DNA from: Nanobdellota archaeon
GTDB lineage: Archaea > Nanobdellota > Nanobdellia > Woesearchaeales > WJKV01
Assembly (NCBI GenBank): GCA_023133595.1
Contig: JAGLWF010000003.1
Coordinates: 44,369-108,368, forward strand
DNA length: 64,000 nucleotides
Direction of reading: 5' to 3'
Every line of letters begins with the position of its first letter. Within the stretch, counting starts at the first letter, position 1. A model generated the notes under the pieces. The model did not search any database, was not told where the DNA came from, and saw only the letters and a list, made by a program, of their open reading frames with translations. Below, piece by piece: positions 3,181 through 58,602 of the stretch. The translations under genes were made by a program, and so were the position numbers.

Positions 3181-3181
3181 C

Positions 3182-24937: not shown

Positions 24938-24938
24938 A

Positions 24939-25973: not shown

Positions 25974-25974
25974 A

Positions 25975-26478: not shown

Positions 26479-26479
26479 G

Positions 26480-26992: not shown

Positions 26993-27102
26993 ATAAGAAT
27001 GGAGAAATTACAACACGAACATTGGTAATCATCATAGCTACATTGGTAGGAATATTCATACTAGCAATGTTATTTTTCAGAACATTCAATATCTTAAAAT
27101 GA
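26989..27102 (+). CDS. Tiny (37 aa) pilin-like ORF, below the ORF-track length cut-off; translationally coupled on both sides (ATGA overlaps)
   Basis: Manual translation: MNKNGEITTRTLVIIIATLVGIFILAMLFFRTFNILK. Start overlaps the upstream stop (tcATGa) and the stop overlaps the downstream start (aaATGa). Confidence 0.4.
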   Translation: MNKNGEITTRTLVIIIATLVGIFILAMLFFRTFNILK

Positions 27103-27986: not shown

Positions 27987-27988
27987 AA

Positions 27989-28774
27989 ATGAATAAAAAG
28001 GCTACGATTGGAATGGTATGGAATGTGATCATAGCAATACTTGTAGGAATAGTGGCTTTGATAATCCTGACATTTTTCCTGCAATCCACAGGAGAGGCTG
28101 CAGAACGCCTGCAGGAAGATGTCATGTGCAAGGTCAGTGTGGAGGAAGCTGTACGTAGCGGAGACTGGTGGGGAGATGTAATTAGATGTCCGACAAAGTA
28201 TCATGAACTGAAAAAAGTTAGTGAAGAGGAAGTCAAGAAATTGATTGCGCAGCGCAGTATCACGTGCTGGGATAAGTTCGGAAGAGGAGAGAAATTATTA
28301 TTTGCGCAGGACCCTAAATTGTTCGGCACAGACAAAGCTTCATATTGCAATGTGTGCGATGTGTTTGAATTTGAGAAAGTTAAGCCAATCCTTGAATTTG
28401 GCACTTATCTGACAGGACATAATGTCTCTTCATATTATTCAAAAGAACCGATCAGCCAGTTTGAATTCTTGAATCGTGTAAAGCTAGAGTCGGATGAAAA
28501 GACTGAGCTAGAGAACACTGTGCTGAAACAGGTGGGGATAGATACTGCAAATTCTTATGCAATTGTCTTCATCTATACAAAGGATCCGAAATTCTTTGCA
28601 ATGAAATACTTTCTTGGAGAAGCGAGCAAGAATTATCTGCCAGCAAAGATATATTTCAGCAGTCTGAGCTACATGCTTGGTGATGACGGGCTTGCAGATT
28701 GGGATGCGCGGATAGCCCTGGTGCCTTACAAAAAAGAGCAATTACAGAAGGCTTGCGAGTATCTCGAAGAATAA
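27989..28774 (+). CDS. Class III signal peptide (pilin-like) protein, ~261 aa (start moved to the internal ATG at 27989)
   Basis: MNKKATIGMVWNVIIAILVGIVALIILTFFL. Starting at 27989 removes the overlap with the upstream gene and places the KKA motif at the N-terminus. Confidence 0.45.
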   Translation: MNKKATIGMVWNVIIAILVGIVALIILTFFLQSTGEAAERLQEDVMCKVSVEEAVRSGDWWGDVIRCPTKYHELKKVSEEEVKKLIAQRSITCWDKFGRGEKLLFAQDPKLFGTDKASYCNVCDVFEFEKVKPILEFGTYLTGHNVSSYYSKEPISQFEFLNRVKLESDEKTELENTVLKQVGIDTANSYAIVFIYTKDPKFFAMKYFLGEASKNYLPAKIYFSSLSYMLGDDGLADWDARIALVPYKKEQLQKACEYLEE

Positions 28775-28808
28775 ATTTAAATAGAATGTTTCATTTGATG
28801 GTGTCAAG

Positions 28809-28979
28809 ATGTGGTGGATGTTGCTTAAATCAAACATGAGGGACAATAAAGGAGATATTTCTGTCAAGGCAATTGTCATCATCATAATTGCAATCGCAAT
28901 CCTGGTCTTGCTGCTCTACATGGCAGCAACAAAAGGAAAAGGAATGTTTACTGTGTGGGAAAAAGGCCCGTTTAGCTAA
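28809..28979 (+). CDS. Tiny (56 aa) pilin-like ORF, not in the ORF track
   Basis: Manual translation: MWWMLLKSNMRDNKGDISVKAIVIIIIAIAILVLLLYMAATKGKGMFTVWEKGPFS. NKG followed by an ~18-aa hydrophobic stretch. The overlapping track ORF 28888-29100 in another frame looks spurious. Confidence 0.4.
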   Translation: MWWMLLKSNMRDNKGDISVKAIVIIIIAIAILVLLLYMAATKGKGMFTVWEKGPFS

Positions 28980-28981
28980 AA

Positions 28982-29212
28982 ATGAAGACAATAGATATCA
29001 TCATAGTGCTTATCATTGCATTGCTAGTGATTGTGCTTGTAATGCTGATATTTTTTCCAAAGATAAAGCATACAGACGTAATCTCAGAAGAATTTGTTAA
29101 GAAGACATTAGAAGAACAGACAGCAGCAGAAGCGGATCCAGAGATACTGGCTGGAATCACTACAGCAGTATCTGGTTCTGAGACAGGGATTTTGGTGCTG
29201 GATCCTCTCTGA
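28982..29212 (+). CDS. Small (76 aa) N-terminally membrane-anchored protein within the pilin-like cluster (no canonical [KR][GA] motif)
   Basis: MKTIDIIIVLIIALLVIVLVMLIFF... then an acidic C-terminal half. Confidence 0.35.
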   Translation: MKTIDIIIVLIIALLVIVLVMLIFFPKIKHTDVISEEFVKKTLEEQTAAEADPEILAGITTAVSGSETGILVLDPL

Positions 29213-29281
29213 AGCTATAGCAACATTTATATATGAGAGATACGGCCTGTTATATGGTAATAAGCATAAGAGGTGAACAAG

Positions 29282-29575
29282 ATGCGCAATAAAAAGGGAT
29301 TAGAAATGTCAATGAGTATTGTTGTGATCGCAGTACTGGCAATCCTGGTATTAGTTGTTCTCGCAGTTATTTTTACAACACAAACAGGAAAAGTAGGAAA
29401 AGAAATCCAAGGATGTATTGCAACAGGCGGTCTGTGTAAAGATGCAGCAGAAGGCTGTAACCCTGATACAGAAGTACAGGGTAGAGAAGGAGCATATAAC
29501 TGTCCAGAAGATACTGTGTGCTGCTTTGATAAAAATCTTGCATCAGCAAGAGGCCTGAAGACAGAGCTCATTTGA
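29282..29575 (+). CDS. Small class III signal peptide pilin-like protein (~97 aa) with a Cys-containing C-terminal domain; candidate major or minor pilin subunit
   Basis: MRNKKGLEMSMSIVVIAVLAILVLVVLAVIF, then ...GCIATGGLCKDAAEGCNPD...CPEDTVCC. Start moved to the internal ATG at 29282. Confidence 0.5.
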   Translation: MRNKKGLEMSMSIVVIAVLAILVLVVLAVIFTTQTGKVGKEIQGCIATGGLCKDAAEGCNPDTEVQGREGAYNCPEDTVCCFDKNLASARGLKTELI

Positions 29576-29637
29576 TTTTTATTATTATTTTTCTTTATGA
29601 CAACCTTTATATATGAAACAAACCTATTTTCTAGAAA

Positions 29638-29946
29638 ATGACATATAAAAAGAGGTGCAATAGGAAAGCACAAAATCTTTCTATGCAGGTTGTGGTCATA
29701 ATCATAATTGCAGTGCTTGTGCTCATTGTGGTGGCATTGATGTTTTCTGGCCAGGTATTCAAAGGAAAAAAGGAGATAGATTATATCTCTGCACCGATCG
29801 AATACCAGACAGCATGCCTGAAACAGAACGTACTGCCCTACGCAGAATGTGTTGCAAAATGTAAAGCATGGATTGCAGAGCATCCTGGCGAGCATTTGAA
29901 GAATGCTGTTGTTGATGGTGCGGATTGTTATGTTAAGAAAAAATGA
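29638..29946 (+). CDS. Small class III signal peptide pilin-like protein (102 aa)
   Basis: ...CNRKAQNLSMQVVVIIIIAVLVLIVVALMF; C-terminal domain with 4 Cys. Confidence 0.5.
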   Translation: MTYKKRCNRKAQNLSMQVVVIIIIAVLVLIVVALMFSGQVFKGKKEIDYISAPIEYQTACLKQNVLPYAECVAKCKAWIAEHPGEHLKNAVVDGADCYVKKK

Positions 29947-30638
29947 GAAATAGAAAAGGACAGACTACCTGGATCTCCCAAGAATATATTCTTGTTGTAC
30001 TTGCAGTTGTAGGATTGTTCATCCTGATGACTTTTGGCATTCGTGTGTGCAGCACGATCGAACAAAGCGAGACAAAAGGCAGTTTTGAATCATTCATGGA
30101 TGTCTATGAAGGGATTAACATATTGACAAGCCAGAATCTTACAAAATGCGGTGTTGCGGTCGCTTTCCAGGATAATGAGGCGCTTGTTGGCTTCAGTGCT
30201 GCGCAGGCAAGAGTAAGTCCAAAAATAGGAACTTTGCGAAGCTTGACAAGATGGATCTCTGATACTAGAATCAATAGGCCAGAGGCAGAATACTGTCCTC
30301 CAGCAGTATCTTGCTTGGTGCTATGTAATGTTGAAAGTACGCCAAATGCTGATGATTGCAGAGGCACGTTAAGGTTAGACTCGCGCGAATTTTTCAATGT
30401 ATCTGTGATCAAGCGCAGGGATGGCAATGCGCGGGATATGGTATACTTTGGTGACGAGAAAGCAGAAGTTGAATATTTGACACTTGAAAAGATCGGAACA
30501 GTACCGTACACAATTCATATCTATAAAGGAGATGCGCAGATAAAACCGTGTCAGAGCGCTGTCAAGATTGCTGAGCGCAAGTTCGGAGAGAAACCTAAGT
30601 TCGAGACACCAACAATAGAAGAAATAGATTTATCGTGA
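29943..30638 (+). CDS. Class III signal peptide (pilin-like) protein, 231 aa
   Basis: MRNRKGQTTWISQEYILVVLAVVGLFILMTFG; 4-nt overlap with the upstream gene. Confidence 0.5.
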   Translation: MRNRKGQTTWISQEYILVVLAVVGLFILMTFGIRVCSTIEQSETKGSFESFMDVYEGINILTSQNLTKCGVAVAFQDNEALVGFSAAQARVSPKIGTLRSLTRWISDTRINRPEAEYCPPAVSCLVLCNVESTPNADDCRGTLRLDSREFFNVSVIKRRDGNARDMVYFGDEKAEVEYLTLEKIGTVPYTIHIYKGDAQIKPCQSAVKIAERKFGEKPKFETPTIEEIDLS

Positions 30639-30645
30639 GTCTGAG

Positions 30646-31509
30646 ATGAGATCTAATAAGAGAGGGATAATAAGCGAGCAGTTGTATATTCTATTTGGAA
30701 TTCTCGTTGTTGTTGTTTTTTCAATCAATGCGTACAAGTTTGTGAATGGAATAGCTTCTGAATCTGCAATGCAGCAGCAGTTCGCAGTGCGTGACCTTGC
30801 AATGATAGGAACAACAGCATCTGGAGCACCAGGTACTTTGGCATATGTCTTCTTTATGCAGAATTCGAGGCAAAAAGTTCTGCCAGGGCAATTGTCATTG
30901 GCATTTTATGATCCGAAGACAGAAACTTTCCTGAAATATGCTGAATATTTCTTTACGTATTCAAAAAATCAAAAGTTCCAGAAAAGCAGAAACTTGACAA
31001 ATTCAATGCACATTGTCAGAAACGGGGATGAATTTGCATTCTATAACGCTTATTCCAAGAGCATGGGATCGAAAGATCTTGACTGCCGGAATTATATGCA
31101 GACAAAGACTATCGGAGAGTTTGCGAAAAATAAGATTGTGATCAGCCTTCGCAGTAAGGAAAATTATGTCAAATTAATTGCAGAGAAAATTCATTCTGGA
31201 CTTGGCGGAGGCCTGGCAACAGGACAGAACGTGGTTCTTGATCTGGACGGGACAATGGAGGGAGGAGATATTTTTGTTGTATTAAAAGATGAAAACAAGA
31301 CATCTATAGTTCTTGGAACCCCGACACAGGAGACAAAAAAACTTGGCTGTATGATAAAAGATGAAGTAGGAGCAGCAGAGATTGACCAGGACTATCATTT
31401 GGATCTGATAAATAATCCTGCACTGATCAAGATTCTGGTCAAAATCCCGCAGGGAGAGGATTATTCCTCTGAGATAGCAAGCAGTATACTAGGGTATTAT
31501 CATGAATAA
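30646..31509 (+). CDS. Class III signal peptide (pilin-like) protein, 287 aa
   Basis: MRSNKRGIISEQLYILFGILVVVVFS. Confidence 0.5.
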   Translation: MRSNKRGIISEQLYILFGILVVVVFSINAYKFVNGIASESAMQQQFAVRDLAMIGTTASGAPGTLAYVFFMQNSRQKVLPGQLSLAFYDPKTETFLKYAEYFFTYSKNQKFQKSRNLTNSMHIVRNGDEFAFYNAYSKSMGSKDLDCRNYMQTKTIGEFAKNKIVISLRSKENYVKLIAEKIHSGLGGGLATGQNVVLDLDGTMEGGDIFVVLKDENKTSIVLGTPTQETKKLGCMIKDEVGAAEIDQDYHLDLINNPALIKILVKIPQGEDYSSEIASSILGYYHE

Positions 31510-32005
31510 ACGAGGATTGGCGTTCAATCAGATGATAAAGATTGCTGAATTAGTTTTATTAGTGATAGTATTGATGGCATTATATTTCTGTCTGAGGCAT
31601 GCAGTCTCTACTTTGCACGATACAAGCTCTGCAGAAGCTGTCTCGTATGTAACTAATATTCTTTATTCAAAAGACGGGATAATGTTGTATGATCCTGAAA
31701 TTGACCGAGTGTATCCTGGAATCATTAGTAATTTTGATAGTGCAGTGCTGGATTCTTCAATGAAAGTCAATATCAGCGGAGAGTTCCCAGCTGCAAAATT
31801 AACATTGATTGATGCAAAATCTGGCGGGGAGCAGGTGATCTACTGGAATGAGAAGTGGTACAACCGTCTCAAGGAGAAAATTGGATTCAAGGGAAAAGCC
31901 AGTCCGCATATGCGCACTGAGAATCTTGTTGTGAATGTTGCTCAGCCTGATGGAAGCATATCTTTATCCTATCTGACAATAGAGGTTTTGGTGCCTAGAA
32001 GATGA
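31502..32005 (+). CDS. Class III signal peptide (pilin-like) protein, 167 aa
   Basis: MNKRGLAFNQMIKIAELVLLVIVLMALYF; 8-nt overlap with the upstream gene. Confidence 0.5.
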   Translation: MNKRGLAFNQMIKIAELVLLVIVLMALYFCLRHAVSTLHDTSSAEAVSYVTNILYSKDGIMLYDPEIDRVYPGIISNFDSAVLDSSMKVNISGEFPAAKLTLIDAKSGGEQVIYWNEKWYNRLKEKIGFKGKASPHMRTENLVVNVAQPDGSISLSYLTIEVLVPRR

Positions 32006-32586
32006 GAAAGAACAAAAGAGCTGGAATTGCGAACATGTTCGAGATAATCGGTGCCTCACTATTCATACTTGTCCTGTTCATAATCTTCTGCAGCGGATTT
32101 TTTATTGATTTTAATAGAATAAATGTTATGGTGACTGGAGCAACCATTGGTTATAATCATGATATAACAATGCAGAGTTATCTGCGCGCACCTGTTGAGT
32201 ACAACAATGAGACAATCATAATGCTTGACTTGATAAATATTGCAATTTCTGAAGGTGATTCTACGCTTCTCGAGGCTGAGACACAGAAAATTTTGATACA
32301 ATATGTCTATGATAACAAATTCTGGTATGTTGGTGTGTGGGATATGCAGAGGAGTGATTTTAGTAAAGTATTGAATGAATATGTTGATTATGATGATTTT
32401 GAAGATATAATGGATGAAGATCCAGGCTATGAGATCGGTAACAGCAGGTTGTTGGTGAACATGCACAGGCTTGAACCAAAAGATAAAGGAGAGAATAAAG
32501 AATTGAAATTCACACAGGTCCCGTATTTTTCCAGTGGGGAGAAAAAATTTATGATCTTAGTCTTCCAGGTAGGTGAAGCAAAATGA
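32002..32586 (+). CDS. Class III signal peptide (pilin-like) protein, 194 aa
   Basis: MRKNKRAGIANMFEIIGASLFILVLFIIF; 4-nt overlaps on both sides. Confidence 0.5.
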   Translation: MRKNKRAGIANMFEIIGASLFILVLFIIFCSGFFIDFNRINVMVTGATIGYNHDITMQSYLRAPVEYNNETIIMLDLINIAISEGDSTLLEAETQKILIQYVYDNKFWYVGVWDMQRSDFSKVLNEYVDYDDFEDIMDEDPGYEIGNSRLLVNMHRLEPKDKGENKELKFTQVPYFSSGEKKFMILVFQVGEAK

Positions 32587-33911
32587 ACAAGAAAGGAGTC
32601 TTGAGCATATTTCTGGCTGTGATGACTACTTTTATCATAATCTATGCTTTCATTGTCCTTGGAAATACTGGAAAGATCAATGACAGAATTGTTGGAATGG
32701 ATGCTATTAAATTAGGGGAATTGTATCAGATAGGAGAGGATGCAAGATCATATATTGACAATGCTGCGCATTATTCCAAAGGCCCTGCATTGTATTTATT
32801 TGAGAAAAATGGTTTGTTTCCAGAGTGCGGAGAGATGGAAACATACTTTTTGTGGAAGAATAAGACGCACGAGTGTTATCCAGACGAAAATTCAATCTCT
32901 TTCGGAATACGCAGCGCATTTGCATCGATCATAAACCCATATCTTGAGAATTATTTATTGTACGACATAACCTTGGATTATGTGACTCCTGCTGATCTTA
33001 AGTTCAAGGATTCCGCGATCATGGGATATCCATTTGACAGCCTGGTAGTTAATAATGATCCCTTCTATTCAGTGAGCCAGGGCTTTTCTGTTGATTATGA
33101 TTATCCGTTTGATTATGGTGAGATCCAGAACCATGTTATGCAGATAAATGATCAGTGTAAAGATAAAGAAGGGATGGCATTGAAGAATTGTGTTGACAGC
33201 GAGATAAATAAAGTAAATATTTTTGAATCCCGGAGGAGCAGGGAATGGATTTTTGGAGGCTGTGGCAGTACAGACGAGGCAATGCTGAATGCTTTCGCTG
33301 AAAAATATAATGATTGTGCTTCTTCACATGATTACAAATGTGACTGTCCAAGTGCAGCTTACGATCCCAGGATAAACATACAAGGACAAGTCGCAGTGCT
33401 AGGGAATGAATCTTCTTTGCTCGGCTTGCCGTTCAATGCAGGCGCAATGCTTCCTGGAGCGCGCCTGGTAAAGCAGAAGAATTTCATTGACCTTGCAGTC
33501 TCGGGAGCAGTCAATCCGATATGCCGATCAGATCGCCGTATGTTTCGAGTTTGTGTGAAACAACCATTCCGTGTTCGGATTGGAAATGAGAGGAAACAGT
33601 TGATGACACGGTTTGCATTCTATGTAGATGATGGGTTTGCGCCAGAACCAGTGGTTGTTTCTGAAAGAAATGATAAGAAAGCGTTTGAATGGCTGCCATC
33701 TGGTTCAGCAGATGTGGAAGAGTATCGTGTGTTTGTCTACAAAAAAGGTTTAGTTCCTGATTATTCTACTTATGATATTGTTTTACGGGAAACAAATTCT
33801 GATGAAAAATTATCTTTTATGAAGGATACAACAATTTACGATATAGAAGTGGTCGCTGTAGATTTTGACGGCAATTGCATGATCTCTGGAAAGAAACAAA
33901 AATGCAAATGA
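32583..33911 (+). CDS. Class III signal peptide (pilin-like) protein, 442 aa, Cys-containing extracellular domain; last gene of the array
   Basis: MNKKGVLSIFLAVMTTFIIIYAFIVLGN. Confidence 0.5.
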   Translation: MNKKGVLSIFLAVMTTFIIIYAFIVLGNTGKINDRIVGMDAIKLGELYQIGEDARSYIDNAAHYSKGPALYLFEKNGLFPECGEMETYFLWKNKTHECYPDENSISFGIRSAFASIINPYLENYLLYDITLDYVTPADLKFKDSAIMGYPFDSLVVNNDPFYSVSQGFSVDYDYPFDYGEIQNHVMQINDQCKDKEGMALKNCVDSEINKVNIFESRRSREWIFGGCGSTDEAMLNAFAEKYNDCASSHDYKCDCPSAAYDPRINIQGQVAVLGNESSLLGLPFNAGAMLPGARLVKQKNFIDLAVSGAVNPICRSDRRMFRVCVKQPFRVRIGNERKQLMTRFAFYVDDGFAPEPVVVSERNDKKAFEWLPSGSADVEEYRVFVYKKGLVPDYSTYDIVLRETNSDEKLSFMKDTTIYDIEVVAVDFDGNCMISGKKQKCK

Positions 33912-33977: not shown

Positions 33978-34994
33978 ATGATTCAGATGCCTTATGACCA
34001 GATTATAAAAAAATTAGTTGCAAATACTTCGCTTTCTGAAAAAGAACTTAATGATAAGATCGAAGCAAAGATGAAAGAGCTTTCTGGCCTTATAAGCAAG
34101 GAAGGTGCTGCGCATATCATTGCGAACGAGCTTGGTGTGAAACTCTTCCAGGTGTCTGCAGGATTGCTGAAGATCAAGGATATCCACCCTGGAATGCGCG
34201 CAGTAGAGACAGTGGGAAAAGTGACAAATGTCTTTGAACCAAGAGAGTTTGACACTGGGGCCCGGAAAGGAAAGGTTGGAAATTTTATCATATCTGATGA
34301 GAGCGGCAGTATAAGAGTTACATTATGGAATGAGATGGTTGATAAATTGCAGAAACTTGAACCTGGAAAGACAATAGTGAAGATAAAAGGCGGATATGTG
34401 CGGCAGAATAATATTGGAAATAAGGAATTGCACCTTAATGACAAGTCTGCCTTGACTTTGAATCCACCAGGCATTGAGATAACTGAGCGAAGATCAGAGA
34501 GAAAAAAGATAATCGATCTTTCTGAAGGGGAGGATTCAGTTGAACTTTTAGGACATATTGTTGATATATTCAGTCCTGCATTTTTTGAAGTCTGCCCCGT
34601 ATGCAGCCGCAGGCTAAAGCTAGGGGAGAAGGGGTTCGAGTGCCAGCAGCACGAGAAAGTGGAACCTGCACTTTCTTATGTTGTCAATGTCCTGCTGGAC
34701 GATGGCACAGGAACCATGCGCGTTGCCTGCTGGAGGAACCAAGCTGACAAATTGTTTGACAATATGCTTGATCTTAAGGATAATAATGAACTGTTTGAGC
34801 AGAAAAAAGCTGAATTGCTTGGCATAATGGTGACTGTGCGTGGAAAGGTCACTAAAAACAATCTTAATGGAAATCTGGAACTGTCTTCTTTTAATCTAGA
34901 CACCAATCCAAAGATGGAGAAAGAGGTTGAAGAGCTTCAGAAAGAAGTGGAAGAACTAGATAATCTCAAAATTGAAGAAGAAGAAATAAAATAA
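33978..34994 (+). CDS. rpa: Replication protein A (archaeal RPA/SSB) with two OB folds and a C4 zinc ribbon
   Basis: OB-fold regions GKVTNVFEPREFDTGARKGKVGNFIISDESGSIRVTLW and the zinc motif CPVCSRRLK...CQQHEK. RBS AAGGGGG lies 8 nt upstream. Confidence 0.7.
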   Translation: MIQMPYDQIIKKLVANTSLSEKELNDKIEAKMKELSGLISKEGAAHIIANELGVKLFQVSAGLLKIKDIHPGMRAVETVGKVTNVFEPREFDTGARKGKVGNFIISDESGSIRVTLWNEMVDKLQKLEPGKTIVKIKGGYVRQNNIGNKELHLNDKSALTLNPPGIEITERRSERKKIIDLSEGEDSVELLGHIVDIFSPAFFEVCPVCSRRLKLGEKGFECQQHEKVEPALSYVVNVLLDDGTGTMRVACWRNQADKLFDNMLDLKDNNELFEQKKAELLGIMVTVRGKVTKNNLNGNLELSSFNLDTNPKMEKEVEELQKEVEELDNLKIEEEEIK

Positions 34995-38896: not shown

Positions 38897-39364
38897 TTGA
38901 AAGGTGATTTGAAGATGATGGGCCGCACACATATGCTATTTGGTTTTCTAGTAGGTCTGTTTGCTATCCAAGCATTGCATCCATCTAATCAAATCCTTTT
39001 CATATTCCTAGTTGTCTTGGGAGCTTTGCTACCAGACATAGATCATCCGGATTCTAAAATTGGAAGCAAAGTCAGGATTGTTGGAGCATTGTTTGAACAT
39101 CGCGGATTTTTCCATTCATTGTTCGCAGTTGCATTGTTTGTTATTCCATTCTGGATTTTTACATCAAGGATTTATGCATATGCTATTTTGATCGGTGTTT
39201 TATCTCATCTCTTGGCAGATATGATTTCGCACATGGGAATCATGCCCTTTGCCCCGATATCTAGGTTTAAATTGCGCGGCTTTATCAAAACAAACTCTAT
39301 TGGCGAGAATATCATCCTTGTTGTTGTGTTTTTACTATCAATCTGGAAACTGGTGAGCCTATGA
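38897..39364 (+). CDS. Membrane-bound metal-dependent hydrolase (DUF457/YdjM-like)
   Basis: His/Asp-rich motifs within TM helices (LPDIDHPDS, FFHS, SHLLADMISH). Confidence 0.45.
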   Translation: MKGDLKMMGRTHMLFGFLVGLFAIQALHPSNQILFIFLVVLGALLPDIDHPDSKIGSKVRIVGALFEHRGFFHSLFAVALFVIPFWIFTSRIYAYAILIGVLSHLLADMISHMGIMPFAPISRFKLRGFIKTNSIGENIILVVVFLLSIWKLVSL

Positions 39365-40297: not shown

Positions 40298-41974
40298 TTG
40301 GGAATGGTTGTATCAGAAAGGACTCAAGAGCAGACACATTTAGACATATATAACCAGAATCGCGGTTATTTCTTATCATTTCTGAAGCATACTGATCAAA
40401 AACCAAATACGGTTGCACGCATGGAAGCTAGATTGAAAGCGTATTTTCCTAGGATTGTTGAAGCTTTTGCAGCATACAGTCCAGAAGGACAAGTTTTAAC
40501 TATTGGAAGTGGTGCGGGTGATGATTATTTTCCACTTTTGCATAGATTTCCGAATGATAATATTGTTACAACATTCCATGAACCAAATCTAGGTATGGCA
40601 ATCCAATTTTTTATTAAATACCTTGCTTCTGGTTTTAGATTTGATAATCTTGAGATCCACAAGCAACCATTGACAAATGCTTTTGTTTCTACTGAAAAAA
40701 ATAAATATGCTTTATGTGTCGGAACACACTGTTTTTATTATATTGATGATTGGGAATCTTCTATACGTGGATTGGTTGACTCAACAAGACCGGGGGGAGT
40801 TGCAGCTGTTACATTAACATCTCGAGAAGGAGATTTGTATAAATTTCGTGAACGATTTTTCCCTGCAGTTGGAAACGGAAAACCAAAATGTGCTGAAGAT
40901 CTTGAAGAATTGTTGGGTCGAATGGGGATAGATTTTATTTCTGAAGATTTTGAGTCTTCTTTAATAGTTGATGATGAAGAGGAAGAGAAAAATGTGTTAT
41001 CTTTCATGTTAAGAAAACATTATGATCAATTAGACGATGCGACCAAAGCTGAAATTGATTCTTATCTTCTTACTGAAGAAAAAGGCAATGGAAAATTAAA
41101 ATTGAAATTAAGGGATAAAGTAATCTGGATCCCAAAAGCTGGCGAATTTAAATTCCAACCCGGAGAAAGAAAACCAATCTGGGAACAAAAATATCTAACA
41201 GTTGGAGAATTTCATGAATTTTTTAAGTTTCATATGGATAAACTCATCAAAAAAGATTGGGATGAAGTAATGAAATCCTCCAAGTATCAGCAGTGGGTGC
41301 GTGACGAATTCCGTCGGGGATATGAACTTCTCCTGATCGGAGATTGTTTTTGCAGCGACCCATACTTTAAACAGATCTCCTTTATTGATGACAATCGTCT
41401 TGGTGCGCCTGTGAAGTTTAGGGGGCCTGACGGAAGAGAGTATTGGGGCTCTCCTACAGCATCCCAAATGAAATTGCTTGAAGAGGAAATGATGGGCGGA
41501 GAAGGAGCATATGAAATTTGCGAAGAACATAGTTCTCCAGAGGAGAGGATGAATCAACATACGTTTTTCTGGGTTGATGATTATTTAGATATGGTAATGC
41601 TAGATATTAATAGGAATGGAGCTTTAGAAATGGGCAATCCCATGTCTATAAAAACTCTTTATTTTGATTGTTATCGGGAGTTTGGACATCACGAAGTTTT
41701 TTCGATGGATGGATTTTCAATATTTAACGAGATTGTAAAACAGAATCCTCAAATCAGTGTGAAACATAAAAGAGTGACTCCTAGAGATCTTGAGACTATC
41801 TTGTTTCATATTGCTCAACAAGAAGGGCCAGAAAAATTGAAGCAAGCAATTTCTGAACTTCAGAAAATGATTCCACAGATGTCTGTTGAACCTGGAGAAG
41901 AAGAGGATTTTACTAGGTTACTTTCCGAGCTCGCTGCCAGAGCAGATCGAAGTAGCCCTCATAATCCTGCATGA
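40298..41974 (+). CDS. Hypothetical 558-aa protein; N-terminal region has a SAM-MTase motif-I-like VLTIGSGAGDD
   Basis: Long ORF with only a weak Rossmann motif. Confidence 0.35.
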   Translation: MGMVVSERTQEQTHLDIYNQNRGYFLSFLKHTDQKPNTVARMEARLKAYFPRIVEAFAAYSPEGQVLTIGSGAGDDYFPLLHRFPNDNIVTTFHEPNLGMAIQFFIKYLASGFRFDNLEIHKQPLTNAFVSTEKNKYALCVGTHCFYYIDDWESSIRGLVDSTRPGGVAAVTLTSREGDLYKFRERFFPAVGNGKPKCAEDLEELLGRMGIDFISEDFESSLIVDDEEEEKNVLSFMLRKHYDQLDDATKAEIDSYLLTEEKGNGKLKLKLRDKVIWIPKAGEFKFQPGERKPIWEQKYLTVGEFHEFFKFHMDKLIKKDWDEVMKSSKYQQWVRDEFRRGYELLLIGDCFCSDPYFKQISFIDDNRLGAPVKFRGPDGREYWGSPTASQMKLLEEEMMGGEGAYEICEEHSSPEERMNQHTFFWVDDYLDMVMLDINRNGALEMGNPMSIKTLYFDCYREFGHHEVFSMDGFSIFNEIVKQNPQISVKHKRVTPRDLETILFHIAQQEGPEKLKQAISELQKMIPQMSVEPGEEEDFTRLLSELAARADRSSPHNPA

Positions 41975-42662
41975 CTTTCTTGTTCTTGATAATGATACCT
42001 ATTGGTTCTGTCCTTAATCCTATGATGATTCCAACTCTGTCAGCATAGATGTTTAATGCGATCGGTGAATCAACTTCGTTGGGCAGGATTCTTATATCGG
42101 TATATTTCATTTTTGCTAATTCTTTTGCTCTCTTTGAACTTGAACTTTTGAACAAGATCATATCTTTTACTTTCTTTTTTACTCTTCTTGCGTGCCATCT
42201 TGCTAAATAATGTTTCAGTATCCAAGGATAACTCCAACCGCCTATGACTTTGTTTACTTTCGCATGCTGCAGGATGTCTTCAAAGAGGTTTTTTATTCCT
42301 TCTGGTCCCTCGAAGATTTGTATTGCCTGATCTTTTTGTGTTTGCTGTTTAATCTTTGTCAATTCTGGAAGAATCTTATTGAGAAGTTGTTCTTTTTGCT
42401 CTATTTCTGCTCTTTCTTCCTCTAATATTGTCATTAATTTGTTTGGGTCAACTGCTTCGTAGTGCCTTCTCTTATTTTTCATGACAAAATTGATTAATCC
42501 TTTCTCTTTTAATCTCTCTAAAGCATCATATACATTGCTTCTGTGTATGCCTGATTTTTTAGTTATAGTTCCGGCACTAGAAACCCCACTCCTTAACAAT
42601 GTGAGATAGATTTTTGCTTCGTTTCCAGCGATCCCCAGCTTTTGCAGCACTAATTTTTTCAT
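41913..42662 (-). CDS. TrmB-family HTH transcriptional regulator
   Basis: N-terminal LGIAGNEAKIYLTLLRSGVSSAGTITKKSGIHRSNVYDALERLKEKGLI is a typical TrmB wHTH; 249 aa with a C-terminal domain. Confidence 0.6.
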   Translation of the reverse strand: MKKLVLQKLGIAGNEAKIYLTLLRSGVSSAGTITKKSGIHRSNVYDALERLKEKGLINFVMKNKRRHYEAVDPNKLMTILEEERAEIEQKEQLLNKILPELTKIKQQTQKDQAIQIFEGPEGIKNLFEDILQHAKVNKVIGGWSYPWILKHYLARWHARRVKKKVKDMILFKSSSSKRAKELAKMKYTDIRILPNEVDSPIALNIYADRVGIIIGLRTEPIGIIIKNKKVMQDYEGYFDLLWQRARKVT

Positions 42663-50476: not shown

Positions 50477-50610
50477 TAAAATTCTGAAAATTACAAGGAA
50501 TTTATAAATATTCGGAATCATAGTTCTAGTAAACTTCTTTTATCCCAATTTTACAATAATCCTTCTAAAAAACTCTTCAAAAAGCATATAAATCTGAAGT
50601 ACGCATTATC

Positions 50611-50626
50611 CACTGGCCACTGGACA
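50611..50626 (+). promoter_or_regulatory. 16-bp motif CACTGGCCACTGGACA, 13 bp upstream of the BRE/TATA (GGGTTTATAAAG) of radA; identical copy upstream of the 57856 nuclease gene
   Basis: Exact 16/16 identity with 57797-57812. Both copies sit 13-15 bp upstream of a TATA-like element of a + strand gene. Confidence 0.4.
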
Positions 50627-50693
50627 TGCGCGAACAGGGTTTATAAAGCAACACGCCTCTATATACTATAAAATTATAAAGAGGTGTTGCGTT

Positions 50694-51701
50694 ATGGCAA
50701 AAGAACAAAAGATTGAACTGAAACTTGAGGGGGATGTTAAAATGGAGGAAGACAATACCATCATAATCGAGAAAAAGGAAGTCAAAGTAACAGATCTTCC
50801 TGGTGTAGGCCCGGCCACACTAGAAAAACTCGAAAAAGCAGGTTATGATAATCTATTGGCAATTGCAGTAGCATCTATTGGAAATATTGTTGATGCAACT
50901 GGTATGACAGATGTAGCTGCCAGAAAATTGATACAAGGAGCTAGAGATTCCATGGAAATGGGTTTTGAGTCTGGAGATGCTCTTCTAAAAAGAAGGGAGA
51001 GAGTCCAGAAGATCAGGATTCCAGCAGTATCCGTCAATGAACTTCTTGGAGGGGGTTTTGAGACTGGGGCGATAGTTGAAGTCTTTGGACAATACGGATC
51101 TTCTAAGACACAGATTGGTCATCAATTAGCTGTATCTTGCCAGAAAGATGGAGGAACTGCAGTATATATTGATACTGAAAATACGTTTCGGCCGGAACGT
51201 ATTACTCAAATGTCAAAAGCACTGGATATGGACCCGATGGAGGTTCTGAAAAATATCAAAGTTGCGCGCGCATATAACTCTGATCATCAGATGTTTCTGG
51301 CTGAGAAAGTCGAAGAATTATGCAAAAGAGATAAAAATATCAAAGTTGTGATTGTTGATTCTCTGACAGCTTTGTTCAGGGCTGAGTATGTTGGTAGAGG
51401 AACATTAGCAACAAGACAACAGAAACTTAATCGACATATGAGAACACTTGCAAAAATCGCTGATATGTACAATGTTTGTATCTTAGTCACAAACCAAGTC
51501 ATGTCTAAGCCTGACCAGTTCTTTGGAGATCCGACTGAAGCTATAGGAGGACACATTGTCGGGCACAATTCTACTTTCAGAATCTATCTTCGCAGAGGCA
51601 AGAAAGGGACTCGTGTTGCCAAACTAATAGACGCACCTCATATGCCAGACGCTGAAGCTTCCTTCTTGATAACAGAAGACGGCATCCTGGATGTGAAATA
51701 G
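50694..51701 (+). CDS. radA: RadA recombinase (archaeal Rad51/RecA homologue)
   Basis: N-terminal HhH domain (LPGVGPATLEKLEKAGYDNLLAIAVAS), Walker A (GQYGSSKTQ), Walker B (VIVDSLTALFR). Confidence 0.92.
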   Translation: MAKEQKIELKLEGDVKMEEDNTIIIEKKEVKVTDLPGVGPATLEKLEKAGYDNLLAIAVASIGNIVDATGMTDVAARKLIQGARDSMEMGFESGDALLKRRERVQKIRIPAVSVNELLGGGFETGAIVEVFGQYGSSKTQIGHQLAVSCQKDGGTAVYIDTENTFRPERITQMSKALDMDPMEVLKNIKVARAYNSDHQMFLAEKVEELCKRDKNIKVVIVDSLTALFRAEYVGRGTLATRQQKLNRHMRTLAKIADMYNVCILVTNQVMSKPDQFFGDPTEAIGGHIVGHNSTFRIYLRRGKKGTRVAKLIDAPHMPDAEASFLITEDGILDVK

Positions 51702-56388: not shown

Positions 56389-56423
56389 GCCTCTGGAGGG
56401 ATTTGCACCCTCTAATCTAAGAG
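56389..56423 (-). other. tRNA 3'-half-like fragment (T-arm + 3' acceptor strand); imperfect copy of the 3' end of the tRNA at 57508-57610; no matching 5' half found nearby
   Basis: Minus strand reads ...GAGGGTGCAAATCCCTCCAGAGGC versus the intact tRNA's ...GAGGGTGCGATTCCCTCCCAGGGC, same orientation. It overlaps the 3' end of the LAGLIDADG ORF. Confidence 0.4.
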
Positions 56424-57395
56424 TTTCGGACAAGTTTTTCTGATCCTATTTATGTGCCTTGAATTAGAAAAACCTATTGTTTTTAAAAACTTTTTTGTAT
56501 ACTTTTCCCCATTAATTTGAATAATATATCCATTTTTAGTTATTGTTGGATTTAAATCAAAAAATTGCAATGTATTATAAATTTGTCTAATCAAAGGTCT
56601 ATTTATAAGTTCAATATGGATTCTAGGGTAAGGATTGCGATAAGACGGCCTTTTATCAAAAAAGACGCAACCATCGGTATCATATATTCCTCTCAAAAGA
56701 GCAGTAATATGTTCTCGACAAGAGTTTAATATTTCTTGGGGAATTTTAACGGTATATGATTTCTTGCCTGCAGGAAATTTAAATCTTTGGGTTAATAATA
56801 TATGGAGAGTTTTAGAGTTGAGATTTATTCTTAAGGTATTATCTATCCTTTTGATGCGCGGTTTAATATTAAAATAGGTTTTTGCAATAGGAATCATGCA
56901 TTTTTCATAATATTCATAATCATATCTGGAATCTCCTGTAAATTGTATTACATAAGAAGACCCATATTTGTTAGTAAAACCGTCACCAATGAAAGCGCCA
57001 AGAAATTCACAGAGATTTTCATTTAGCTCTAGATTAACATCAAAATGATATTTACTTATTCTGTTTTTCCACGACAATTTTCTACCTATCATAAAAATCT
57101 CTTTGTGATTTTTATAAGTTGTAATGCCTCCTTTTTTACGACCCCAATTTTCATCGATAAGTTGTATTGTTTTATTGAAATAATTCTGTTTTTCTGTCGA
57201 TAGGATGTTATTTAATTTTTGGTACCTATAATAAGGAAGTGTGTACATTCCATTTTTATAAAATTCAAATCTAGATTTAGGAATGTTTGTGAAGTTTCTT
57301 AGTTCTTTCCAAAATCTAAAACCGCTTGCCTTAAGAGCTTCTTTAAAGAATGAAATTCTATCAGATTTGTTTTGAAAAATTACTCGTTTTTTCAT
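56412..57395 (-). mobile_element. Free-standing LAGLIDADG-family homing endonuclease ORF (two LAGLIDADG motifs)
   Basis: Motif 1 LCEFLGAFIGDGF, motif 2 ITALLRGIYDTDGCVFF; 327 aa. Confidence 0.65.
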
Positions 57396-57507: not shown

Positions 57508-57610
57508 AGCCCTGGGAGGGAATCGCACCCTCGACCTGCAGTTTTCTGTGCAAAGCGCATACGAGATTCAGCTCAATGATCTGCTGCTCTGGCTACTAAG
57601 CTACCAGGGC
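57508..57610 (-). tRNA. tRNA gene (~103 nt incl. discriminator) with a ~30-nt insertion in the anticodon region, consistent with an archaeal BHB intron; isotype not resolved by hand
   Basis: Minus-strand RNA: GCCCUGG-UA-GCUU-AGUAGCCA-GAGC-A-GCAGA...CUGC-AGGUC-GAGGG-UGCGAUU-CCCUC-CCAGGGC-U, with a perfect 7-bp acceptor stem, D-arm and T-arm. No CCA encoded. T-rich tract downstream. Confidence 0.6.
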
Positions 57611-57799
57611 TTAAAGTTTATTCAGGATTTCTTCTTTTGACAGCTTGCTCTGGCATTCTGGGCAGATCAGGTGTTTTTTCTTGCCTTTCTTGATATAAGT
57701 ACCTAGGATCTTCTTCAGGAATGTCGTGGCAATTGTCTTTTTGCAGATTTCGCATTTCATAGCATGCATTATCTTGAAGTAGATTATAAACTTTTGCAC
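57611..57799 (-). CDS. Small CxxC...CxxC zinc-ribbon protein (62 aa) whose stop directly abuts the tRNA 5' end
   Basis: MKCEICKK...22 aa...CPECQSK; coding status uncertain. Confidence 0.3.
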   Translation of the reverse strand: MQKFIIYFKIMHAMKCEICKKTIATTFLKKILGTYIKKGKKKHLICPECQSKLSKEEILNKL

Positions 57800-57812
57800 T
57801 GGCCACTGGACA
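57797..57812 (+). promoter_or_regulatory. Second copy of the 16-bp motif CACTGGCCACTGGACA, followed by the palindrome TGGACAGTTGTCCA and a TATA-like box (TTATATAG), ~45 bp upstream of the nuclease gene start
   Basis: Exact match to 50611-50626; spacing to the TATA-like element is 15 bp. Confidence 0.4.
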
Positions 57813-57855
57813 GTTGTCCATAGTGCTTATATAGGAAACAGAGACTCCAAAAGAT

Positions 57856-58602
57856 ATGATTAGAAATAGCTTTATTTTCCTGAAGAACATACGAGAGCAG
57901 ATGGAGAAGAACCTCTGGGAAGTTGGAATACATACCTGGTCTGATTTTCTGGATGCTAAGGATGTGCCAGGTATTTCGAAACAAAAGAAATATTTCTACG
58001 ATGCTCAACTGGAAAAAGCGCAGAAAAATCTGGAAGTAGAGAATATGGCATATTTTGCAGCACAACTCCCTTCTGTCTATCACTGGCGATTGTATGATCA
58101 TTTCAAGGAGGAAATTGTTTACTTAGATATTGAAACTGGAAGCAGGAATGATAATATCACTGTGATTGGTTTATCTGATGGTGTTGATACAAAAATTATG
58201 CTGAAAGGGCAGAATATGCACAGAGAAATTCTCTTGGATGAGCTAAGCAAACATAAGATTCTTGTAACTTTCAATGGCGGAACATTTGATGTTCCGATTC
58301 TGCAGAAATATTTTGGTTTCAAACTAGAGATGCCGCACATAGATCTCAGGCATGTATGTGCAAAGATTGGTTTGAACGGTGGTCTGAAAGAAATAGAGAA
58401 AAAATTGGGCATTAACAGGCCAGAAGAACTGGAATGTCTTAGAGGGCATAATGCTGTTGAACTGTGGAAGATGTGGTGTGTCACGCACGAAGAACGTTTC
58501 TTGGATCTATTGATAAAATACAATGAAGAAGATATCTTAAACTTAAAACCAATCGCAGATCACGCAATAAACGAATTATGGAAGAGAACTAAAGGTTTTT
58601 AA
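57856..58602 (+). CDS. RNase-H-fold predicted 3'-5' exonuclease (YprB / PolB-exonuclease-like)
   Basis: Exo motif I-like YLDIETGS, later FNGGTFDVP and YNEEDI (DEDD-type acidic residues). Confidence 0.5.
   Translation: MIRNSFIFLKNIREQMEKNLWEVGIHTWSDFLDAKDVPGISKQKKYFYDAQLEKAQKNLEVENMAYFAAQLPSVYHWRLYDHFKEEIVYLDIETGSRNDNITVIGLSDGVDTKIMLKGQNMHREILLDELSKHKILVTFNGGTFDVPILQKYFGFKLEMPHIDLRHVCAKIGLNGGLKEIEKKLGINRPEELECLRGHNAVELWKMWCVTHEERFLDLLIKYNEEDILNLKPIADHAINELWKRTKGF

What the first reader, a model, noticed from the sequence alone, without database searches (positions are those of the whole stretch)
50611..50626. Identical 16-bp motif at conserved spacing upstream of the TATA boxes of radA and of a PolB-exo-like nuclease gene
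CACTGGCCACTGGACA occurs at 50611-50626, 13 bp upstream of GGGTTTATAAAG, the BRE/TATA of radA (ATG at 50694). The same 16 bp occur at 57797-57812, 15 bp upstream of GCTTATATAGG, the TATA-like box of the RNase-H-fold exonuclease gene (ATG at 57856). The second copy runs into a perfect palindrome, TGGACAGTTGTCCA. A 16-mer recurring by chance at matching promoter geometry in 64 kb of AT-rich DNA is improbable. Both downstream genes act in DNA repair or recombination. This is a candidate cis-element of a DNA-damage or replication-stress regulon.
Basis: seen in the sequence. Interest (0 to 1): 0.62.

Follow-up and report, generated by a model that had tools for sequence, protein, structure and literature searches.

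The report
Conserved DNA-repair promoter element in DPANN archaea
The repeated 16-base motif is a real control element that sits at a fixed distance in front of the promoters of radA and many other DNA-repair and mobile-element genes in a large group of uncultured tiny archaea, which points to an undescribed SOS-like gene network.

Summary
CACTGGCCACTGGACA occurs exactly twice in the window (50611-50626 and 57797-57812). Each copy ends exactly 15 bp before a TATA hexamer, upstream of radA and of a PF13482 exonuclease gene.

The window comes from a DPANN (Woesearchaeota/Nanoarchaeota) MAG. In all 8 RadA orthologous loci fetched without regard to the motif (64-90% identity), the motif or a close variant sits at the same distance from the TATA box of radA or of a small-protein/radA operon. 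Motif-only scans of genome and viral collections gave 9 DPANN-type hits, all with promoter geometry, against 0 of 161 hits elsewhere.

A metagenome scan returned at least 120 further promoters. The consensus is c-CACTGG-T-CACTGG-ACA, then a BRE-like spacer, then TATA. Downstream genes include radA operons, Hef, Nre, Cas4/Dna2-like and PolB-exo-like nucleases, a radical-SAM/HhH protein and DUF763. They also include LAGLIDADG endonucleases, integrases, Bro-N/ORF6N proteins, restriction-modification genes and toxins.

The best reading is a binding site just upstream of BRE for an unidentified regulator of an SOS-like regulon, probably an activator. The regulator, the sign of regulation and induction by DNA damage are all inferred. 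I found no publication of the motif.

The parts
50610..50626 (+). Motif copy 1: c-CACTGG-C-CACTGG-ACA, two heptad units. The proximal unit CACTGGACA is the conserved anchor.
   Evidence: 52.2 bits. Conserved in RadA orthologous loci.
50627..50639 (+). GC-rich spacer with a BRE-like segment (TGCGCGAACAGGG). It is semi-conserved across about 113 promoters (consensus tGtgCGCGTAAgG).
   Evidence: Position frequency table. Alignment with L004, L005 and L008.
50640..50647 (+). TATA box TTTATAAA of radA. The aligned hexamer TATAAA is at 50642-50647, 15 bp after the motif end.
   Evidence: T at +31 in 100% of sites.
50648..50693 (+). radA 5' leader, with a hairpin that pairs the Shine-Dalgarno sequence GAGGUG.
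   Evidence: -15 kcal/mol, z = -3.57.
50694..51701 (+). radA (335 aa).
   Evidence: Rad51 1e-79.
57797..57812 (+). Motif copy 2: g-CACTGG-C-CACTGG-ACA.
   Evidence: 41.8 bits.
57807..57820 (.). Local inverted repeat TGGACA-GT-TGTCCA overlapping the proximal unit. Not conserved elsewhere.
   Evidence: Absent in the S031, S091 and S120 promoters.
57826..57835 (+). TATA box CTTATATAGG of the exonuclease gene. The hexamer TATATA is at 57828-57833, 15 bp after the motif end. The ATG is 22 nt after the hexamer, which is leaderless geometry.
57856..58602 (+). PF13482 (RNase_H_2, PolB-exonuclease-like) gene, 248 aa.
   Evidence: Orthologues with the motif are in L211/L234 and L270/L299.
57783..57790 (-). 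Divergent TATA box (TTTATAAT on the minus strand), 6 bp from the motif's 5' end and 20 nt upstream of the Zn-ribbon ORF.
   Evidence: The same arrangement is in L270/L299.
57611..57762 (-). Uncalled 49-aa Zn-ribbon ORF (MKCEICKK...CPEC...), divergent from the exonuclease gene.
   Evidence: tblastn finds it in L004 (90% identity) and L270/L299 (59% identity).
57508..57610 (-). Intron-containing tRNA gene.
   Evidence: Rfam RF00005, 46.3 bits, E 1e-8. ARAGORN misses it.
56412..57395 (-). LAGLIDADG_3 protein (327 aa), downstream of the Zn-ribbon ORF and tRNA on the divergent side. Its L008 orthologue lies downstream of a motif variant. It is a regulon member and a speculative regulator candidate.

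Best explanation
The 16-mer is the core of a composite archaeal promoter. It consists of two tandem CACTGG units: a distal heptad and a proximal CACTGGACA. A short GC-rich spacer with a BRE-like segment follows, then the TATA box exactly 15 bp after the motif. The element is the binding site of a sequence-specific regulator that has not been identified. Because the site lies immediately upstream of BRE at a rigid distance, the regulator most likely touches TFB/TBP and activates transcription. That mode is known for upstream activating sequences in other archaea. The element marks a regulon shared by many Woesearchaeota-like DPANN archaea. Its constant member is the radA operon, and in most lineages that operon also encodes a small beta-rich protein with an acidic tail. 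Variable members are Hef, Nre, Cas4/Dna2-like and PolB-exo-like nucleases, a radical-SAM/HhH protein, DUF763, LAGLIDADG endonucleases, integrases, Bro-N/ORF6N proteins, restriction-modification genes and toxins. This composition mirrors a bacterial SOS regulon, so the likely signal is DNA damage or replication stress.

Shown here: the motif, its fixed geometry, its conservation and the identity of the downstream genes. Inferred: that a protein binds it, the sign of regulation, and the inducing signal.
For: 1. The window has two exact copies with identical spacing to TATA; 0 of 100 shuffles match this.
2. Phylogenetic footprint: 8 of 8 RadA orthologous loci fetched through the protein alone (64-90% identity) carry the motif or a variant at the same distance from the TATA of radA or of the small-protein/radA operon.
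3. In scans with no TATA constraint, 8 of 8 archaeal genome hits and the one AT-rich viral-collection hit have the TATA geometry. So do the 2 window sites. None of 146 non-archaeal genome hits and none of the 15 other ACA-type viral-collection hits do.
4. The metagenome scan returned at least 120 promoters. Features that the search pattern did not require are also conserved: C at -1, CGCG/BRE-like positions +20 to +28, T at +31 in 100% of sites even though a 12-16 bp gap was allowed, and a start codon 21-27 nt after TATA in 54 of 118 sites.
5. The downstream genes are coherent: 22 small-protein/radA operons, 4-5 Hef, Nre, Cas4/Dna2-like, PF13482, radical SAM+HhH, DUF763, 13 or more LAGLIDADG_3, 6-7 integrases, 6-9 Bro-N and 3-4 ORF6N.
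6. In the L008 lineage a variant with 9-bp unit spacing (CACTrGACACACTAGACA) occurs at both the radA and the LAGLIDADG promoter.
7. Precedent: the GvpE upstream activating sequence has two repeated portions next to BRE, loses function on any change of spacing, and is shared by divergent promoters (PMC2241852).
Against: No regulator was identified, and no transcription-factor gene is enriched as a divergent neighbour. The TrmB-family gene that is syntenic with the radA region has no motif upstream. These promoters have good BRE and TATA boxes, which is also what one expects of repressed (LexA-type) promoters. There are no expression data, so induction by damage rests on gene content alone. The metagenome set was collected with a TATA constraint and with exact core bases, so motif degeneracy and regulon size are underestimated. 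About half of the targets are mobile-element or defence genes, so the signal could be something other than DNA damage.
Confidence: 0.8

Rival explanations
1. The element is the operator of a LexA-like repressor. The repressor sits against BRE and blocks TFB/TBP recruitment until DNA damage inactivates it.
For: The core promoters look strong, with a BRE-like CGyAA and a near-consensus TATA, as in SOS promoters. The regulon content is SOS-like. The semi-conserved spacer between motif and BRE could be part of a footprint that overlaps BRE.
Against: From general knowledge of archaeal regulators, repressors usually bind over or downstream of TATA/BRE, and sites upstream of BRE usually activate. One documented activator case is the GvpE UAS (PMC2241852). 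Simple occlusion would not need invariant spacing to TATA (T at +31 in 100% of sites).
Confidence: 0.3
2. The motif is bound by a non-initiator Orc1/Cdc6 paralogue, as in the Sulfolobales DNA-damage response. The CCACTGG unit would be a mini-ORB-like core.
For: The reverse complement CCAGTGG resembles the canonical ORB core TCCAGTGGA; this is recalled from the literature and was not tested here. Orc1-2 binds a damage-response element in repair-gene promoters of Saccharolobus (PMC6061795). An Orc1/Cdc6 gene lies just left of the window.
Against: The ORB-like repeats next to that cdc6 gene read TTTCCAGrCGAAA and share only TCCAG with the motif. No Orc1/Cdc6 gene appears among the motif-controlled genes. 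The Sulfolobales element ANTTTC is unrelated in sequence.
Confidence: 0.12
3. The element defines a separate promoter class that is read directly by a specialised basal factor (a TFB or TBP paralogue), not by a classical regulator.
For: The spacing to TATA is rigid and conservation runs continuously from the motif into BRE. Many archaea use TFB/TBP paralogues for stress regulons; this is general knowledge and was not tested here.
Against: The motif lies 16-31 bp upstream of TATA. From general knowledge, TFB contacts reach only about 6-7 bp upstream of TATA, so the motif lies beyond them. Only one TBP gene is visible in the window region. The distal unit can shift by 2 bp, which fits modular binding better.
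Confidence: 0.1
4. The motif belongs to a mobile promoter cassette or is the homing site of the LAGLIDADG endonucleases. It would then be spread by mobile elements rather than being a regulon signal.
For: LAGLIDADG_3 genes are the largest single Pfam class downstream of the motif (13 of 109). Many targets are mobile-element genes. In L008 the two promoters are similar over about 50 bp. An almost invariant 16-mer is the kind of long target that homing endonucleases recognise.
Against: Nothing is conserved upstream of position -1 and there are no terminal repeats. The motif is conserved at the vertically inherited radA locus in lineages whose RadA proteins are only 58-70% identical to the window's. 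It always has the same orientation and distance to a TATA box that drives the downstream gene.
Confidence: 0.05
5. The two copies in the window are a chance coincidence.
For: None beyond the small sample of two.
Against: 0 of 100 shuffles reach the observed count. More than 120 further instances have the same geometry.
Confidence: 0.001

Closest known systems
Sulfolobales DNA-damage-responsive element (ANTTTC) bound by Orc1-2 (PMC6061795)
   Same: Both are short conserved elements in the promoters of DNA-damage-response genes of an archaeon, and both define a regulon. In Sulfolobales the bound factor activates transcription.
   Different: The sequences are unrelated: a hexanucleotide there, a 16-bp double heptad here. 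The Sulfolobales element has a variable position (-23 to -55 from the ATG), whereas this one is 15 bp from TATA in every case. The targets also differ: ups pili, the Ced system and tfb3 there; radA, Hef, nucleases and mobile elements here. The lineage is different (DPANN), and the binding factor here is unknown.
GvpE upstream activating sequence of haloarchaeal gas-vesicle promoters (PMC2241852)
   Same: Both are bipartite repeated elements directly upstream of BRE. In GvpE any change of distance to BRE abolishes activation, which matches the invariant spacing seen here. The GvpE element is shared by two divergent promoters, as at the window's exonuclease/Zn-ribbon site.
   Different: The sequence, regulator, biological function and organism group are all different. 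Activation is demonstrated for GvpE and only inferred here.
Bacterial SOS box / LexA regulon
   Same: The regulon composition is parallel. It has a recombinase (recA / radA), an ssDNA-binding-like partner, helicase and nuclease genes, a PolB-related exonuclease and Bro-N proteins (I recall E. coli DinD as a Bro-N protein; not tested). It also has integrases and toxins. YdjM, which I recall as an SOS gene in E. coli, is a conserved neighbour of the radA promoter here.
   Different: This is an archaeal TATA/BRE promoter. The motif is a direct repeat upstream of the core promoter, not a palindrome overlapping it. No LexA homologue was looked for or seen.
Origin recognition boxes (ORB / mini-ORB)
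   Same: They share the short core CCAGTGG/CCACTGG; this resemblance is recalled and covers a few bases only.
   Different: The sites here are single and lie at promoters, not clustered around an AT-rich unwinding region. The ORB-like repeats next to the local cdc6 gene have a different sequence.

Membership tests
Archaeal upstream activating sequence (UAS, GvpE/Ptr2 type) | Located directly upstream of BRE/TATA | tested here: met
   The motif ends 15 bp before the TATA hexamer at both window sites and in about 113 non-redundant promoters.
Archaeal upstream activating sequence (UAS, GvpE/Ptr2 type) | Function depends on a fixed distance to BRE | tested here: inconclusive
   The distance is invariant in nature: T at +31 in 100% of sites although a 12-16 bp gap was allowed. 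Functional dependence was not tested.
Archaeal upstream activating sequence (UAS, GvpE/Ptr2 type) | Bound by an activator that stimulates TBP/TFB recruitment | not testable with these tools
   No regulator was identified.
Sulfolobales Orc1-2 damage-response element | ANTTTC hexanucleotide motif | tested here: not met
   The consensus is cCACTGGTCACTGGACA. The Sulfolobales motif is quoted from PMC6061795.
Sulfolobales Orc1-2 damage-response element | Present in promoters of DNA-damage-response genes | tested here: met
   It precedes radA, Hef, Nre and nuclease genes. These are different genes from those in Sulfolobales.
Sulfolobales Orc1-2 damage-response element | Bound by an Orc1/Cdc6 paralogue | not testable with these tools
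   One Orc1/Cdc6 gene lies next to the window. Binding cannot be assessed.
Bacterial SOS box | Palindromic operator overlapping the core promoter, bound by LexA | tested here: not met
   The motif is a direct repeat upstream of an archaeal TATA/BRE. No LexA was examined.
Origin recognition box (ORB) | Several copies flanking an AT-rich unwinding element next to orc1/cdc6 | tested here: not met
   There are only two isolated sites in 64 kb, both at gene promoters. The candidate origin beside cdc6 carries TTTCCAGrCGAAA repeats instead.
Dispersed repeat / mobile element | Conserved flanks or terminal repeats, and copies irrespective of gene position | tested here: not met
   There is no conservation upstream of -1. 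In about 950 kb of DPANN DNA, 128 of 131 matches with at most one mismatch have TATA geometry.

The most novel reading that the evidence does not exclude
Woesearchaeota-like DPANN archaea have a lineage-wide SOS-like DNA-damage regulon wired through an almost invariant 16-bp element fused to the core promoter. Its regulator would be a domesticated, autoregulated HTH-LAGLIDADG protein (WhiA-like). This would explain three things: the unusually long and invariant site, the many LAGLIDADG genes under the motif, and the syntenic LAGLIDADG gene beside the window's second copy. The co-transcribed small beta-rich acidic-tail protein would be a new ssDNA-binding partner of RadA.
Probability: 0.12. Interest if true: 0.92.

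Novelty: new variant of a known kind. Interest (0 to 1): 0.8.

Why it matters
How archaea outside the Sulfolobales regulate their response to DNA damage is an open question. Almost nothing is known about transcriptional regulation in DPANN archaea, which are uncultured and have reduced genomes. This element gives a precise and testable handle:
- a 37-bp promoter architecture;
- a defined target set: the radA operon, Hef, Nre, several nucleases and mobile elements;
- a natural spacing variant.

It allows regulon prediction directly from metagenomes and provides a bait for isolating the regulator. It also points to a new RadA-associated small protein family with about 1,300 members and no annotation. 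Finally, it suggests that mobile elements and defence genes in these genomes are wired into the same signal, as prophages and integrons are in the bacterial SOS response.

Tried and rejected
The window's own MAG was not among the hits, so I could not list the regulon of this genome.
4. A literature search for the motif strings found only unrelated primer sequences. Keyword searches found no DPANN promoter or regulon study.
5. Regulator candidates examined without support:
   - The TrmB-family gene syntenic with the radA region has no motif upstream.
   - No family is enriched among divergent neighbours.
   - The small radA-operon protein is more likely an ssDNA binder than a regulator. It has no Pfam or PDB sequence match. 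Its AlphaFold model (pLDDT 83, four strands plus a helix) has no significant Foldseek match, only weak SSB hits.
7. tRNA genes are not general targets. The L008 tRNA-Thr downstream of the motif appears to be a special case.
8. The inverted repeat at the second copy was rejected as part of the element because it is not conserved.
9. The viral-collection hits L012 and L019 are GC-rich phage contigs with (CCACTGR)n heptamer arrays and are unrelated to this element.

Full report
**1. Observation**

The 16-mer CACTGGCCACTGGACA is present at 50611-50626 and 57797-57812 on the + strand. Allowing 3 mismatches gives 3 matches against 0.31 expected, and 0 of 100 dinucleotide-preserving shuffles reach 3. 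The third match is the minus-strand reading of the first site, which shows that the motif is a pseudo-palindrome made of two CCAnTGG units.

The downstream genes are as described. radA runs from 50694 to 51701 (Pfam Rad51, 1e-79). A PF13482 RNase_H_2 (PolB-exonuclease-like) gene runs from 57856 to 58602. When both promoters are aligned on the TATA hexamer (TATAAA at 50642-50647, TATATA at 57828-57833), each motif ends exactly 15 bp upstream. Beyond the 16-mer the flanks do not align, so this is not a duplicated segment. A matrix built later from about 113 related promoters finds only these two sites in the window: 52.2 and 41.8 bits, and nothing else in the window above 8 bits.

**2. Organism and context**

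The exact RadA protein is encoded on contig DAOVMF010000002.1 (300 kb) of MAG GCA_030630885.1, which is labelled Nanoarchaeota. Its closest relatives are labelled Woesearchaeota. Gene calls for the same contig show the following:
- MCM and TBP at the left end of the window;
- an Orc1/Cdc6 gene just outside the left edge;
- RPA (33978-34994), YdjM (about 38897-39364) and a TrmB-family gene (41913-42662) upstream of radA.

**3. Conservation at radA, sampled without reference to the motif**

I fetched RadA orthologues by protein identity only. All eight carry the motif or a close variant at the same distance from a TATA box.

| Locus | RadA identity | Motif |
|---|---|---|
| L004 | 90% | CACTGGTCACTGGCCA |
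| L005-7 | 79% | CATTGGCCACTGGCCA |
| L008/9 | 77% | CACTAGACACACTAGACA |
| L311 | 70% | CACTGGTCACTGGACA |
| L312 | 70% | CACTGGACACTGGACA |
| L315 | 68% | CACTAGCCACTGGACA |
| L314 | 67% | proximal CACTGGACA only |
| L313 | 64% | CACTGGTCACTGGACA |

The proximal unit CACTGG(A/C)CA is the constant anchor, and the distal unit varies.

In the L008 lineage the two units are 9 bp apart instead of 7. The same variant also occurs upstream of a tRNA-Thr/LAGLIDADG_3 gene pair in that genome. This is what a change in a shared trans-acting factor would produce. However, the two L008 promoters are similar over about 50 bp, so gene conversion of a promoter cassette cannot be excluded.

**4. Position bias**

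- It returned 8 archaeal hits. Five come from Woesearchaeota/Nanoarchaeota MAGs. Three come from MAGs labelled Methanosarcinales, and two of those (L087, L165) share 63-69% identical genes with the DPANN loci. L149 has no match to the DPANN loci, so its origin is open.
- All 8 have CACTGG[T/C]CACTGGACA followed at the same distance by a TATA box.
- None of the 146 non-archaeal hits has this geometry. Those are mostly the GC-rich variant CACTGGCCACTGGCCA.

In the viral collection, 1 of 16 ACA-type hits has the geometry. That hit (L035) lies on a 116-kb contig with 33% GC, and the other 15 lack it.

**5. Architecture**

A metagenome scan with CACTGGYCACTGGMCAN{12,16}TWTAWA returned 120 stretches and also stopped at its limit. 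After removing GC-rich heptamer-repeat contigs and near-duplicates, 113 promoters remained. Their consensus is c-CACTGG-T-CACTGG-ACA, then tGtgCGCGTAAgG, then TATATAAA.

Several features that the search pattern did not impose are nevertheless conserved:
- C at position -1 (62%).
- A GC-rich block and a BRE-like CGyAA at positions +20 to +28.
- A single fixed register of the TATA box: T at +31 in 100% of sites, although the pattern allowed a 12-16 bp gap.

Nothing is conserved upstream of -1.

In 54 of 118 sites the first start codon lies 21-27 nt after the TATA hexamer, with a peak at 22 nt. This is the geometry of leaderless archaeal mRNAs, and the window's exonuclease gene fits it at 22 nt. 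radA has a 46-nt leader with a Shine-Dalgarno sequence.

In about 950 kb of DPANN DNA around these sites, 128 of 131 matches with at most one mismatch have the TATA geometry.

**6. Regulon content**

The commonest target, at 22 sites, is a roughly 100-aa protein with no Pfam match. It is followed directly by radA, usually in the order RPA, YdjM, [motif], small protein, RadA. The RadA proteins in these loci are 58-64% identical to the window's. The radA operon is therefore the constant member. The window's lineage has lost the small gene, so the motif drives radA directly.

Other repair-type targets:
- Hef (DEAD + Helicase_C + ERCC4 + HhH; 4-5 sites, one with an intein).
- An Lhr-like helicase.
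- Nre (Nre_N/Nre_C; 2 sites).
- A Cas4/Dna2-like PD-(D/E)XK nuclease (3 sites).
- PF13482 exonucleases (5 sites in 3 lineages, including the window).
- A radical-SAM + HhH protein (2 sites).
- DUF763 (2-3 sites).

Mobile-element and defence targets:
- Free-standing LAGLIDADG_3 proteins, some with HTH domains (13 or more sites).
- Tyrosine integrases (6-7 sites).
- Bro-N proteins (6-9 sites), ORF6N (3-4 sites) and KilA-N-like proteins.
- TnpB.
- Methyltransferases and a type I specificity subunit.
- PIN and TumE toxins.
- A Schlafen/wHTH protein.

A conserved 41-aa peptide upstream of a YrdC/TsaC-like gene is also a target (7 sites).

Exonuclease orthologues do not always carry the motif; those in L008 and L215 lack it. 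The exonuclease gene is therefore a variable member of the regulon.

**7. The second window site is a divergent promoter**

On the minus strand a TATA box (57783-57790) lies 6 bp from the motif. It sits 20 nt upstream of an uncalled 49-aa Zn-ribbon ORF (57611-57762). Downstream of that ORF are an intron-containing tRNA (57508-57610; Rfam 46 bits, missed by ARAGORN) and a LAGLIDADG_3 gene (56412-57395). The Zn-ribbon ORF is conserved in L004 and in L270/L299. In L270/L299 it is again divergent from a motif-bearing exonuclease gene.

**8. Mechanism**

Shown: a rigidly positioned and deeply conserved element immediately upstream of BRE/TATA, shared by a functionally coherent gene set.

Inferred: a sequence-specific protein binds it and controls initiation.

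The position upstream of BRE and the invariant spacing favour an activator that contacts TFB/TBP. The documented precedent is the GvpE upstream activating sequence. It has two 8-nt portions next to BRE, any change in its distance to BRE abolishes activation, and two divergent promoters share it (PMC2241852). A repressor acting against BRE remains a serious alternative, because the core promoters look strong.

The signal is inferred from content. The set parallels the bacterial SOS regulon: a recombinase, an ssDNA-binding-like partner, helicases and nucleases, a PolB-related exonuclease, Bro-N proteins, integrases and toxins.

The only characterised archaeal counterpart is the Orc1-2/ANTTTC system of Sulfolobales (PMC6061795). 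It differs in sequence, position and targets.

**9. Search for the regulator**

None was found.
- The TrmB-family gene that is syntenic with the radA region lacks the motif upstream.
- No DNA-binding family is enriched as a divergent neighbour of the sites.
- The ORB-like repeats beside the neighbouring cdc6 gene read TTTCCAGrCGAAA and share only TCCAG with the motif.
- The LAGLIDADG proteins keep the acidic residues of both LAGLIDADG motifs (GDG and DTDG; read from the sequences). They therefore look like active endonucleases rather than WhiA-type regulators. Three do match the WhiA LAGLIDADG model and several carry HTH domains, so a domesticated regulator among them is not excluded.
- The small radA-operon protein has about 1,287 homologues, all unannotated. 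Its model is confident (pLDDT 83) and shows four strands, one long helix and an acidic C-terminal tail. Foldseek finds no significant PDB match, only weak hits to bacterial SSBs. I read it as a probable ssDNA-binding partner of RadA, not the regulator.

**10. Novelty**

Full-text searches for the motif strings and for DPANN/Woesearchaeota promoter or regulon work found nothing relevant. I classify the element as a new variant of a known kind. It is a cis-element of a damage-response-like regulon, but its sequence, architecture and lineage have not been described, and its regulator is unknown.

**11. Limits**

- Both large scans were truncated.
- The metagenome set required exact core bases and a TATA box, so degenerate sites are missed.
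- The window's own genome could not be scanned completely.
- No expression or binding data exist.

Noticed in passing
L078:1978-2280, L213:5579-5872, L230:1532-1855 and about 20 other loci; absent from the window: An unannotated family of roughly 100-aa proteins sits directly upstream of radA in most related lineages. It has about 1,287 homologues and no Pfam match. The AlphaFold model shows four strands, a helix and an acidic C-terminal tail. Its 100-130 nt leader ends in the conserved TGAAAYAAAAYGCGAAAAGCAAGAGGTG. It is probably an ssDNA-binding partner of RadA.
   Followed up: partly
window 50648-50693: The radA leader folds into a hairpin that pairs the Shine-Dalgarno sequence GAGGUG (-15 kcal/mol, z = -3.57). 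The pairing arms are kept in L004. This may be translational control.
   Followed up: partly
window 57508-57610 (-): An intron-containing tRNA gene (Rfam tRNA, 46 bits). ARAGORN finds no tRNA anywhere in the 64-kb window.
   Followed up: partly
window 57611-57762 (-): A 49-aa CxxC...CxxC Zn-ribbon ORF that is not called in the MAG annotation. It is conserved in L004 (90%) and L270/L299 (59%), and lies beside the exonuclease gene in the window and in L270/L299.
   Followed up: partly
L309:494-990 (just left of window position 1); window 1171-3775: A candidate replication origin: an AT-rich stretch of about 250 bp flanked by ORB-like TTTCCAGrCGAAA repeats, upstream of an Orc1/Cdc6 gene. MCM and TBP genes lie nearby inside the window.
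   Followed up: partly
window 13732-24444 (+) and about 24900-33900: A 3,570-aa ORF with only faint Ig-like or carbohydrate-binding Pfam hits. It is followed by about 17 co-oriented genes with no Pfam hit at all.
   Followed up: no
L265:6467-6589, L165:2441-2566, L268:4248-4373 and others: A conserved 41-aa peptide (MVDLTTRTIKRLFEEQ...EDTFDYQLSGGWL) lies under the motif. It is followed by a YrdC/TsaC-like gene in at least 4 loci (L165, L265, L268, L280).
   Followed up: no
L243, L249, L258, L272, L313 (directly upstream of the motif): A subset of promoters has an extra conserved block, CCACTrGCCACTATAAACACTCTs, abutting the motif. This is a third degenerate unit fused to a TATA-like sequence.
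   Followed up: no
L012, L019 (viral contigs, 61-63% GC); L119, L253, L291 (bacterial or metagenome contigs): Tandem arrays of the heptamer CCACTGR (CCACTGG/CCACTGA), lying in intergenic spacers in the phage contigs L012 and L019. They have no TATA geometry and appear unrelated to the archaeal element.
   Followed up: partly
L087, L165 (contigs of MAGs labelled Methanosarcinales): These contigs carry the motif and genes 63-69% identical to DPANN loci. They are probably mis-binned or mislabelled DPANN DNA.
   Followed up: partly
L212:2-3730 (-): A Hef gene interrupted by an intein with a LAGLIDADG domain, preceded by two motif-bearing promoters 149 bp apart.
   Followed up: no
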